Made by a program: the position numbers and the translations under genes
Part shown: positions 15,478 through 16,146 of the stretch, one piece after another
How positions within the stretch are numbered: the first letter of the stretch is position 1
Layout of the letters: every line of letters starts with the position of its first letter
Notes under the pieces: model-generated
Told to the model about the DNA's origin: nothing
The model's input: only the letters and a program-made list of their open reading frames with translations
Database searches by the model: none
Origin: a virus
Lineage: Duplodnaviria; Heunggongvirae; Uroviricota; Caudoviricetes
Reading direction: 5' to 3' (one strand)
DNA: 28,548 nt
IMG/VR virus record: IMGVR_UViG_2537562092_000003

Positions 15478-16146
15478 TCATTCCTGCCCTTCTTCTTTAC
15501 CGTAGTGGAGTTGACCAATTTTGATAAGAGGGCGTCCCTGGGATTTGCGGTGTAAATTGGTATCGCGAAGTGAATACACGCAACCACAATATTCCTGCTG
15601 ATAGAATTGTTCGCGTTTGCTGATTTCAATCATGCGGGACGAGCCTCCCTGCTTGCGCCAGTTATAATCCCAGTACACCATGCCCGGATAATGTGCGACA
15701 GCTCGCCGTCCGCTGTCGTTAACCTGCTGCATATTTTTCCAGCGAGAAATGCCCAGTGAACTGCTGATCACACTGAAACCATTTTCAGCGGCGTACAGCG
15801 CCGTCCGTTCAAAACGCATGTCAAAACACATAGTACAACGCCTCCCACGTTCGGGCTCCCATTCCATTCCTTTGGCTCGCTCAAACCAGTTGTCAGTGTC
15901 GTAATCAGCATCGATAAACGGTACACCATGTTGTTCAGCATATCGAATATTCTCATTCTTACGAATCAAATACTCTTTCTGAGGATGAATGTTCGGATTA
16001 TAGAAGAAGATGGTGTAGTCGATTCCTGAGGCCTGAAGAGCCTCCATCACTTCACCGGAACATGGTGCACAACAAGAGTGTAATAGTAGTTTGTTTGCCC
16101 CGTTTGGGAGCTCCAACTTAGGACGTTTGAAATCAGCAACTGTCAT
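15478..16146 (-). CDS. queH: Epoxyqueuosine reductase QueH-like (DUF208)
   Basis: N-terminal [11 protein letters not shown] and C-terminal QEYCGCVYS cysteine motifs characteristic of DUF208/QueH (recall). Confidence 0.65.

What the first reader, a model, noticed from the sequence alone, without database searches (positions are those of the whole stretch)
15478..16146. Prophage-borne QueH-like epoxyqueuosine reductase
The 222-aa protein carries the cysteine motifs I associate with DUF208/QueH ([11 protein letters not shown], then CTMC and YCGCVYS). QueH is the cobalamin-independent enzyme for the last step of queuosine tRNA modification, and E. coli K-12 is known for the cobalamin-dependent QueG route instead. 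A phage-delivered QueH would supply a B12-independent alternative; a role in 7-deazaguanine-type modification cannot be excluded. No other queuosine or dpdA-like gene is visible in this window.
Basis: partly seen in the sequence, partly recalled or inferred. Interest (0 to 1): 0.6.

Follow-up and report, generated by a model that had tools for sequence, protein, structure and literature searches.

The report
Prophage-carried QueH tRNA-modification enzyme
A Rac-type prophage of E. coli carries an intact, selectively maintained copy of QueH, the vitamin-B12-independent enzyme for the last step of queuosine tRNA modification; databases already name it QueH, but nobody seems to have studied why about one E. 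coli genome in five carries it alongside the B12-dependent QueG.

Summary
Window 15478-16146 (minus strand) encodes a 222-aa protein carrying the quoted cysteine motifs.

**Evidence that it is QueH**
- It matches Pfam QueH end to end (221 bits; cutoff 23.5).
- It keeps all seven family cysteines.
- Its predicted fold matches the solved T. maritima QueH (TM 0.84).
- It is 78-86% identical to QueH of other Enterobacterales; the six loci examined, including Erwinia and Providencia, are chromosomal.

**Context**
- The window is an undeleted Rac prophage next to ttcA. K-12's Rac lacks a 7.7-kb segment that includes this gene.
- queH occurs in 995 of 5,426 complete E. coli genomes, including ST131 and O157:H7.
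- It nearly always sits directly after the prophage replication module. It is also present in the isolated phage HannyBb.
- Selection is strongly purifying (dN/dS about 0.03), and all 80 fetched viral copies are intact.
- queG is present in all 5,426 genomes, so queH is always a second, B12-independent route.
- I found no queuosine-precursor, TGT or DpdA gene in the window.

**Verdict**
RefSeq already labels the gene QueH, so its identity is not new. I found no literature on its prophage carriage. Its expression timing and benefit are unknown. Interest is modest.

The parts
15478..16146 (-). queH coding sequence (222 aa, stop codon included). Conserved cysteines are C25, C26, C29, C104, C107, C187 and C189.
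   Evidence: ORF. Pfam QueH at 221 bits. PDB QueH at E 3e-22. Fold match with TM 0.84. Ligand columns conserved. dN/dS 0.03-0.04. RefSeq WP_000214879.1 is named 'epoxyqueuosine reductase QueH'.
16147..16195 (-). About 49 nt of 5' leader conserved in all prophage and phage copies. It contains TGCTACACA at 16181-16189, a candidate extended -10 element that reads TGCTACACT in the other copies and in the native Erwinia gene. No canonical Shine-Dalgarno sequence precedes the ATG. A promoter function is inferred only.
   Evidence: Four-context alignment with CTCTGATGCTACAC invariant. The motif lies 31-34 nt from the ATG in the window, ST131, O157, HannyBb and Erwinia copies, and is absent from the five other native loci. 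The generic promoter scan did not call it.
15090..15127 (-). Two weak terminator-like hairpins about 350 nt downstream of the queH stop, a possible 3' end of a queH transcript. Low confidence.
   Evidence: Consensus scan only, and the number of sites is no higher than in shuffled sequence. The 3' flank down to at least 15250 is shared with phage HannyBb but not with the ST131 or O157 prophages.
16826..17248 (-). DUF977 / Ren-like gene, the last gene of the prophage replication module. It is the constant upstream, same-strand neighbour that anchors queH at the first cargo slot of the nin-like region.
   Evidence: RefSeq annotation. phrog_142 Ren-like exclusion protein. Immediately upstream of queH in about 75 of 80 IMG/VR loci and in the ST131 and O157 prophages.

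Best explanation
The gene encodes a genuine QueH, the cobalamin-independent iron-sulfur epoxyqueuosine reductase. It converts epoxyqueuosine (oQ) to queuosine (Q) at position 34 of the host's tRNA-Asp, -Asn, -His and -Tyr. It was captured from an Erwinia-like enterobacterial chromosome. It is now standard cargo in the first accessory slot after the replication module of Rac/Qin-type lambdoid prophages.

Every E. coli already has QueG, which needs cobalamin that E. coli cannot make de novo. The prophage copy therefore removes the B12 requirement from the last step of Q synthesis in lysogens, in infected cells, or in both.

Shown here:
- family membership, a complete cysteine set, fold, and orthology to housekeeping QueH;
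- the prophage location and its stereotypy;
- strong purifying selection;
- universal co-occurrence with queG.

Inferred:
- catalytic activity on E. coli oQ-tRNA;
- expression, whether from its own candidate extended -10 promoter or by read-through from the early-right operon;
- any fitness benefit when B12 is scarce.
For: Family identity:
- Pfam QueH, full-length, 221 bits.
- PDB QueH at E 3e-22.
- AF2 model with pTM 0.80 whose top five PDB hits are T. maritima QueH, target-normalised TM 0.84 and rmsd 2.5 A.
- All seven conserved Cys are present. Cys29 aligns with Asp13 of the T. maritima enzyme but is Cys in 68 of about 72 diverse representatives.
- H23, N50, N52, E99, R103 and S134 are also conserved.

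Origin:
- 78-86% identity to QueH of Erwinia, Providencia, Proteus, Photorhabdus and others.
- The six native loci examined have no phage-family neighbours. In Providencia queH lies near tmcA and purC, and in Erwinia between purL and glrK/glnB.

Selection:
- dN/dS is 0.03-0.04 between the window, ST131 and HannyBb alleles.
- Codons 1-33 show 7-9 synonymous changes against 1 nonsynonymous in the two window comparisons.
- All 80 IMG/VR copies are intact with all seven Cys; 25 nucleotide alleles collapse to 9 proteins.

Distribution and context:
- 995 of 5,426 E. coli genomes carry it.
- It is present in the isolated temperate phage HannyBb.
- The order DUF977 then queH is constant.
- queG is in 5,426 of 5,426 genomes.

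Literature:
- QueH is described as a non-orthologous replacement of QueG (PMC5372724).
- oQ-to-Q reduction in E. coli is cobamide-dependent (Frey et al. 1988, as cited).
- K-12's Rac lacks the 7.7-kb segment containing queH. This is consistent with published K-12 queG mutants accumulating oQ (my own knowledge of Miles 2011 and Zallot 2017; neither paper was retrievable).
Against: - No activity or expression data exist for this protein.
- No canonical Shine-Dalgarno sequence precedes Met1. An SD-like GGTGAAGTG precedes Met34, and PHROGs' phrog_3217 profile begins at residue 34. A Met34 product would lack three ligand cysteines.
- The generic promoter scan found no minus-strand promoter upstream. 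In the window the candidate -10 has A in place of the conserved final T.
- In this window an antisense ORF (16417-16689) lies between the replication module and queH, which could hinder read-through.
- No phenotypic difference between oQ-tRNA and Q-tRNA is known, so the selective benefit is unexplained.
- NCBIfam has no model that hits the protein.
Confidence: 0.8

Rival explanations
1. Same enzyme, but it serves the phage and not the lysogen. It would be expressed only during lytic growth as part of the early-right (pR-type) operon, topping up Q on GUN-anticodon tRNAs so that NAC/NAU-rich late genes are decoded optimally.
For: queH is co-oriented with, and directly follows, the replication genes in about 75 of 80 loci and in the ST131 and O157 prophages. 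It is kept in a viable temperate phage, HannyBb. No independent promoter was called. A review reports that Q rises during phage infection of Shewanella and that late phage genes favour UAC (PMC13191261).
Against: The host already has QueG. No decoding difference between oQ and Q is known. Neighbouring slot occupants (hokD, a Dcm/NgoMIV restriction-modification pair) are typical lysogen-expressed cargo. The leader motif shared with the native Erwinia gene hints at an own promoter. Modifying bulk tRNA within a short lytic cycle would have limited effect.
Confidence: 0.25
2. The protein takes part in 7-deazaguanine modification of phage DNA.
For: 7-deazaguanine DNA modifications exist in phages (PMC6884629).
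Against: No DpdA/TGT-like transglycosylase and no FolE, QueD, QueE, QueC or QueA gene is in the window. Hutinet et al. found no QueA, QueG or QueH in the deazaguanine-encoding viruses they analysed. 78-86% identity to QueH of other Enterobacterales, chromosomal in all six loci examined, argues for an unchanged substrate. No known DNA modification contains the epoxy-cyclopentanediol group (own knowledge).
Confidence: 0.03
3. The gene is a neutral hitch-hiker or a decaying remnant in a cryptic prophage, with no current function.
For: Rac is often defective, K-12 has deleted the region without obvious cost, and the function is redundant with queG.
Against: dN/dS is 0.03-0.04 at dS about 0.27-0.46. 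All 80 copies are intact with every cysteine, and 25 nucleotide alleles give only 9 proteins. 985 of 995 E. coli copies cover at least 80% of the gene. It is present in a live phage.
Confidence: 0.05
4. The QueH fold is used for conflict rather than housekeeping. For example, changing the oQ/Q state of anticodons could alter sensitivity to anticodon nucleases that target Q-tRNAs (colicin E5 type), or the enzyme could act on a different epoxide substrate.
For: It sits in a slot otherwise filled by conflict genes (hok toxin, restriction-modification pair, Ren-like exclusion protein, SieB nearby). Colicin E5 targets the same four tRNAs (own knowledge).
Against: No PADLOC defence-model hit. The sequence is almost unchanged from housekeeping orthologs. 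No evidence exists that oQ versus Q affects any nuclease.
Confidence: 0.05

Closest known systems
QueH (DUF208, PF02677, COG1636), the cobalamin-independent tRNA epoxyqueuosine(34) reductase; solved structure T. maritima 7LC5/7LC7/9DEU
   Same: Full-length profile match. Same fold (target-normalised TM 0.84). The CCxxC, CxxC and CxC cysteine motifs and other invariant residues are present. It is 78-86% identical to QueH of other Enterobacterales, which is chromosomal in the six loci examined.
   Different: It is carried by lambdoid prophages and one isolated temperate phage, not at a chromosomal housekeeping locus. It always co-exists with QueG in its host. Position 29 is Cys where the crystallised T. 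maritima enzyme has Asp13, but Cys is the family majority.
[quoted passage not shown]
   Same: The predicted reaction and substrate are the same: oQ34-tRNA to Q34-tRNA (PMC5372724).
   Different: It is a non-homologous protein family. QueG needs B12 and QueH does not. queG is core, present in 5,426 of 5,426 genomes, whereas queH is accessory, present in 995 of 5,426.
Lambdoid prophage nin-region cargo genes (morons, lysogenic-conversion genes) such as hokD, restriction-modification pairs, and trkG in Rac
   Same: It occupies a variable accessory slot between the replication module and the Q antiterminator. It is flanked by different cargo in different prophages and was apparently captured from a bacterial chromosome.
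   Different: The cargo is a tRNA-modification maturation enzyme. I found no description of such a case in the searchable literature. Autonomous expression has not been shown.
Phage 7-deazaguanine DNA-modification clusters (DpdA with FolE, QueD, QueE, QueC)
   Same: Both relate to queuosine-pathway chemistry.
   Different: None of the defining genes is present here. Those phages were reported to lack QueA, QueG and QueH.

Membership tests
QueH (PF02677 / DUF208) epoxyqueuosine reductase | Full-length match to the family profile above the curated threshold | tested here: met
   221.3 bits against a 23.5-bit cutoff, profile positions 1-174 of 175, residues 20-194.
QueH (PF02677 / DUF208) epoxyqueuosine reductase | Conserved metal-ligand cysteines: CCxxC near the N-terminus, CxxC mid-protein, CxC near the C-terminus. 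They bind the [4Fe-4S] cluster and the adjacent iron (ligand roles from my own knowledge of the T. maritima structure paper, which was not retrievable). | tested here: met
   C25, C26, C29, C104, C107, C187 and C189 are present, and each is the dominant residue in about 80 diverse representatives. All are retained in all 80 IMG/VR copies. PDB depositors made C9S and D13N mutants at the positions aligned with C25 and C29.
QueH (PF02677 / DUF208) epoxyqueuosine reductase | Three-dimensional fold of solved QueH | tested here: met
   AF2 model with pLDDT 78.5 and pTM 0.80. Foldseek top five hits are 7lc7, 7lc5, 9d86, 9dco and 9deu, with target-normalised TM 0.83-0.84 and rmsd 2.5-3.2 A. The next hits are TtuA/NcsA-type enzymes at E about 1e-4.
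QueH (PF02677 / DUF208) epoxyqueuosine reductase | Orthology to QueH genes that serve as the housekeeping enzyme in their genomes | tested here: met
   78-86% identity to QueH of Erwinia, Providencia, Proteus, Photorhabdus and others. The native chromosomal neighbourhoods contain no phage genes.
QueH (PF02677 / DUF208) epoxyqueuosine reductase | Catalyses B12-independent reduction of oQ34-tRNA to Q34-tRNA | not testable with these tools
   This needs complementation of a queG mutant and LC-MS of tRNA nucleosides.
QueH (PF02677 / DUF208) epoxyqueuosine reductase | The host supplies the substrate, that is, an upstream Q pathway (tgt, queA) is present | not tested
   Established for E. coli in the literature (PMC5372724). 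Here only queG was surveyed, and it is in 5,426 of 5,426 genomes.
Phage 7-deazaguanine DNA-modification system (DpdA type) | A DpdA/TGT-family transglycosylase and preQ0-synthesis genes in the same element | tested here: not met
   None appears in the RefSeq annotation of the identical prophage or in Pfam scans of ten further window ORFs.
Prophage moron / lysogenic-conversion gene | Located in a variable accessory slot of a prophage, and of foreign (bacterial) origin | tested here: met
   The upstream anchor (DUF977) is constant and the downstream neighbours vary. The shared cassette begins about 50 nt upstream of the ATG. The closest relatives are chromosomal.
Prophage moron / lysogenic-conversion gene | Own promoter and terminator, with expression in the lysogen | tested here: inconclusive
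   A candidate extended -10 (TGCTACACT/A) is shared with the native Erwinia leader, but the generic scan calls no promoter and only weak distant terminators. No expression data exist.
Known anti-phage defence systems (PADLOC) | Match to a defence-system protein model | tested here: not met
   No hit for QueH or its neighbours at E up to 0.01.

The most novel reading that the evidence does not exclude
Prophage QueH may be a lysogenic-conversion factor for the tRNA epitranscriptome. In roughly one E. coli genome in five, including the ST131 and O157:H7 genomes examined, it would make queuosine formation independent of vitamin B12. The textbook statement that E. coli needs cobamide to finish Q would then be strain-dependent. 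Carriage would give a selectable advantage where B12 is scarce, or in btuB mutants selected by phages and colicins.
Probability: 0.4. Interest if true: 0.55.

Novelty: already known. Interest (0 to 1): 0.3.

Why it matters
If active, this gene means that the B12 dependence of queuosine synthesis, established in K-12 and Salmonella, does not hold for a large minority of natural and pathogenic E. coli. It would also mean that a temperate phage can rewrite a cofactor dependency of the host's translation apparatus.

The case is cleanly testable. One gene is set against a queG deletion, and the readout is a single nucleoside. It could help reveal whether oQ and Q differ functionally, which is currently unknown.

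As a sequence annotation it adds nothing new, because RefSeq, UniRef and IMG already call this protein QueH.

One practical point does follow. PHROGs lists the family as 'unknown function' with a profile that starts at Met34, and phage HannyBb annotates it as hypothetical. Phage annotation pipelines therefore miss it, and earlier surveys reported no QueH in the viruses they examined.

Tried and rejected
- NCBIfam scan: no model hits the protein, so PGAP's name must come from another rule.
- Rfam, permissive scan of 14000-17500 and gathering-threshold scan of the whole window: no preQ1 or cobalamin riboswitch or other RNA element near queH. Only RalA and the two tRNAs were found elsewhere.
- Generic promoter/terminator scan: no minus-strand promoter between 16147 and 16825. 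Terminator-like sites were no more frequent than in shuffles.
- PADLOC: no defence-system match.
- Literature: six searches for QueH or DUF208 with phage or prophage terms, and for the exact protein accessions, found no paper on a phage- or prophage-borne QueH. Many hits were the surname Quehenberger or unrelated DUF20xx families.
- Papers not held by the library: Zallot 2017, the QueH structure paper, Miles 2011 and Frey 1988. Ligand roles and K-12 mutant phenotypes therefore rest on my own knowledge plus citations seen in other papers.
- Hits in the 'phages' collection other than HannyBb are unannotated metagenomic fragments or implausibly large 'phage' records of 282-379 kb. I did not take them as evidence for phage carriage.
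- Leader motif: I looked for the TGCTACACT element upstream of native queH in six genera and found it only in Erwinia. It is therefore not a family-wide regulatory element.
- Technical slips: two scripts failed (a wrong file path and a 3-nt register error). One alignment trimmed the start codon instead of the stop. All were redone.

Full report
**1. Observation**

It runs from ATG to stop and encodes 222 aa. The three quoted motifs are present verbatim: [11 protein letters not shown] at residues 20-30, CTMC at 104-107 and YCGCVYS at 186-192.

**2. Family identity**

- Pfam PF02677 (QueH, formerly DUF208) matches residues 20-194 over profile positions 1-174 of 175. The E-value is 1.2e-65 and the score 221.3 bits, against a 23.5-bit cutoff.
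- The only solved relatives by sequence are the T. maritima QueH entries, at E 3e-22 over residues 20-196.
- An AlphaFold2 model built on 33 homologs has mean pLDDT 78.5 and pTM 0.80. Its five best PDB matches are all T. maritima QueH: 7lc7, 7lc5, the C9S and D13N mutants, and the queuosine complex. Target-normalised TM is 0.83-0.84 and rmsd is 2.5-3.2 A.
- The next matches are the TtuA/NcsA-type [4Fe-4S] tRNA thiolases of the same PP-loop-like superfamily, at E about 1e-4.
- An exhaustive HMMER search found 4,733 50%-identity cluster representatives at E up to 1e-3.
- I aligned about 80 full-length representatives with the window protein and T. maritima QueH. C25, C26, C29, C104, C107, C187 and C189 are each the dominant residue in their columns. 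So are H23, N50, N52, E99, R103 and S134.
- Cys29 aligns with Asp13 of the crystallised enzyme, but Cys is the family norm there (68 of about 72 non-gap sequences). The window protein is therefore the typical form and T. maritima is the exception.
- NCBIfam has no model that hits the protein.

**3. Origin**

- The nearest non-E. coli relatives are 78-86% identical. They are QueH proteins of Erwinia, Providencia, Proteus, Photorhabdus, Gibbsiella, Ewingella, Rahnella, Dickeya, Sodalis and Arsenophonus.
- In Providencia the gene lies between tmcA/DUF441 and an ECF-transporter/purC region. In Erwinia it lies between purL and glrK-glrR-glnB-hmp-glyA.
- Photorhabdus, Ewingella, Gibbsiella and a Pectobacteriaceae genome also show ordinary chromosomal neighbourhoods.
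- These are native chromosomal genes, so the E. coli copy looks like a captured enterobacterial queH with an essentially unchanged sequence.

**4. Genomic setting**

- The window is 100% identical to part of E. coli 13TMH22. It is a Rac-type lambdoid prophage integrated next to ttcA. Its genes include intR, xisR, rcbA, ralR, recT, recE, racC, kilR and sieB, then a cI/cro-like pair, ydaT, ydaV, DUF1627 and DUF977.
- After queH come DUF1367, YbcO, a DUF1133/Q-like gene, two tRNAs, lysis genes, trkG and tail-fibre genes.
- K-12's Rac aligns with the window on both sides but lacks window 10215-17948, about 7.7 kb including queH. This explains why K-12 relies on QueG alone.

**5. Distribution**

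- The queH gene alone matches 995 of 5,426 complete E. coli genomes. Identity is at least 99% in 43 and 90-95% in 952, and 985 cover at least 80% of the gene. Every listed row is annotated 'epoxyqueuosine reductase QueH'.
- Carriers include ST131, O157:H7 and APEC strains.
- The 90%-identity protein cluster has 2,308 members, including proteins from Enterobacter, Klebsiella and Shigella. The exact window protein was seen on 634 contigs.
- In IMG/VR, 188 viral contigs encode close relatives.
- Among isolated phages only the temperate Escherichia phage HannyBb carries it, at 96.8% amino-acid identity, where it is annotated as hypothetical.
- In about 75 of the 80 fetched viral loci, and in the ST131 and O157 prophages, the order is (ydaV, DUF1627), DUF977/Ren-like, then queH, all on one strand. 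Variable cargo follows: hokD, a Dcm plus NgoMIV-type restriction-modification pair, or an antisense DUF1971 gene. After that come DUF968-RusA-Q or DUF1367.
- The window's arrangement has an antisense 90-aa ORF upstream of queH and the antisense DUF1971 gene downstream. It is a 3-of-80 minority.

**6. Selection**

- Between the window, ST131 and HannyBb alleles, nucleotide identity is 91.5-94.4% but amino-acid identity is 96.8-97.7%. dS is 0.27-0.46, dN is 0.010-0.018, and dN/dS is 0.03-0.04.
- All 80 IMG/VR copies are intact ORFs retaining all seven cysteines. The 25 distinct nucleotide alleles encode only 9 proteins. The gene is therefore maintained by selection within the mobile lineage.

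**7. Host pathway**

- K-12 queG (b4166) matches 5,426 of 5,426 genomes at 95% identity or more and at least 80% coverage. QueH is therefore always an addition to QueG and never a replacement.
- Published work describes QueH as a non-orthologous replacement of QueG (PMC5372724) and as the cobamide-independent alternative (PMC6461909).
- The cobamide dependence of oQ reduction in E. coli goes back to Frey et al. 1988, seen here only as a citation.
- That E. coli cannot make cobalamin de novo is my own knowledge.

**8. Start codon and expression (unresolved)**

- No Shine-Dalgarno sequence precedes Met1, whereas GGTGAAGTG precedes Met34 (sequence).
- PHROGs' phrog_3217 ('unknown function') matches at 442 bits, but its profile begins at residue 34. 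Several database representatives also start there. A Met34 product would lack C25, C26 and C29.
- Codons 1-33 show 7-9 synonymous against 1 nonsynonymous difference in the two window comparisons, and 3 against 2 between HannyBb and ST131. The N-terminal segment is also conserved in the native orthologs. I therefore conclude that Met1, or the nearby in-frame ATG seen in ST131 and HannyBb, is the real start.
- The cassette shared by all contexts begins only about 50 nt upstream of the ATG. It contains TGCTACACT, which reads TGCTACACA in the window at 16181-16189. The motif lies 34 nt from the ATG.
- The same nonamer sits 31 nt from the ATG of the native Erwinia gene but is absent from five other native loci. 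It fits an extended -10 element, which suggests capture together with a promoter. This is inference only.
- The generic scan calls no promoter there, and finds only weak terminator-like hairpins about 350 nt downstream.
- No riboswitch is present.

**9. Mechanism proposed**

QueH would use a [4Fe-4S] cluster and an adjacent iron site (my own knowledge of the T. maritima structure) to reduce the epoxide of oQ34 on tRNA-Asp, -Asn, -His and -Tyr to the cyclopentene of Q, without cobalamin.

Carried by the prophage, it would uncouple Q completion from B12 supply. Whether it acts in lysogens as a moron, or during lytic growth by read-through from the early-right operon, is open.

A review notes rising Q during a Shewanella phage infection. 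That keeps the lytic-phase rival alive.

**10. Rivals rejected or down-weighted**

- DNA 7-deazaguanine modification is not supported. No DpdA/TGT or preQ0-synthesis gene is present. Hutinet et al. reported no QueA, QueG or QueH in the viruses they analysed.
- Neutral decay is contradicted by the selection data.
- A defence or conflict role has no direct support.

**11. Novelty**

The identity call is already in RefSeq, UniRef and IMG, so as an annotation this is known. I could not find, in six literature searches, any discussion of QueH as prophage or phage cargo or of its redundancy with QueG in E. coli. The biological question is open and cheaply testable, but the object itself is an ordinary member of a characterised enzyme family. 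Interest is 0.3.

Noticed in passing
window 6498-7274 (-), with 7780-8037 (-): A 258-aa ORF matches Pfam PF20691 TAGT (TET-associated glycosyltransferase) at E 1.3e-34 across the full profile. RefSeq treats the stretch as a partial 'hypothetical' pseudogene next to the ynaK ParB/Srx fragment. It looks like the remnant of a ParB/Srx plus glycosyltransferase DNA-base-modification module inside Rac, in the K-12 ynaK-ydaY region.
   Followed up: no
window 16045-16056 (-), around Met34 of queH; phrog_3217: An SD-like GGTGAAGTG precedes the internal Met34, and no SD precedes Met1. The PHROGs profile for this family starts at residue 34 and is labelled 'unknown function'. Phage HannyBb annotates the gene as hypothetical. 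Phage annotation resources therefore mis-start or miss QueH.
   Followed up: partly
window 10215-17948: This 7.7-kb segment is absent from K-12's Rac. It carries part of the lysis region, two tRNAs, the Q-like DUF1133 gene, YbcO, DUF1367, DUF1971, queH, DUF977 and most of DUF1627. The window represents a less-decayed Rac.
   Followed up: yes
window 11723-11797 and 11801-11876 (-): The prophage carries tRNA-Gly(UCC) and tRNA-Thr(UGU) just upstream of the lysis genes. Neither is a queuosine substrate, so they are unrelated to queH.
   Followed up: partly
window 13658-14866: An AT-rich island (29-40% GC) with about 870 nt unannotated. It is followed by a plus-strand DUF1971 / YeaR-TehB-like gene (14528-14866; phrog_34268, unknown function) that is antisense to the surrounding operon. 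It is probably a separate insertion.
   Followed up: no
window 16417-16689 (+): A 90-aa ORF (37.7% GC; RefSeq 'hypothetical protein') lies antisense between DUF977 and queH. It has no Pfam, PHROG or PADLOC match. It is present in only 3 of 80 related viral loci.
   Followed up: partly
L003 9904-10059; L004 9851-11861: In other prophages the slot just after queH holds the hokD toxin (ST131 type) or a Dcm methyltransferase plus NgoMIV-family restriction enzyme (O157:H7 type). This marks a cargo hot spot.
   Followed up: partly
window 26814-26992 (-): The RalA antitoxin sRNA of the RalR/RalA type I toxin-antitoxin system is detected at 225 bits, as expected for Rac.
   Followed up: no
window 18766-19554 (-): A 262-aa ORF in the replication module, at the position of ydaU, has no Pfam match. 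It differs from K-12 ydaU: window 19128-19633 has no megablast match to K-12.
   Followed up: no
phage-collection records CAKLQH020000001.1 and CAKLQF020000001.1: Two 328-379-kb records named 'Acinetobacter phage MD-2021a' encode a 77.6%-identical QueH annotated 'putative prophage protein'. Their size suggests bacterial or chimeric sequence, not a phage genome.
   Followed up: no
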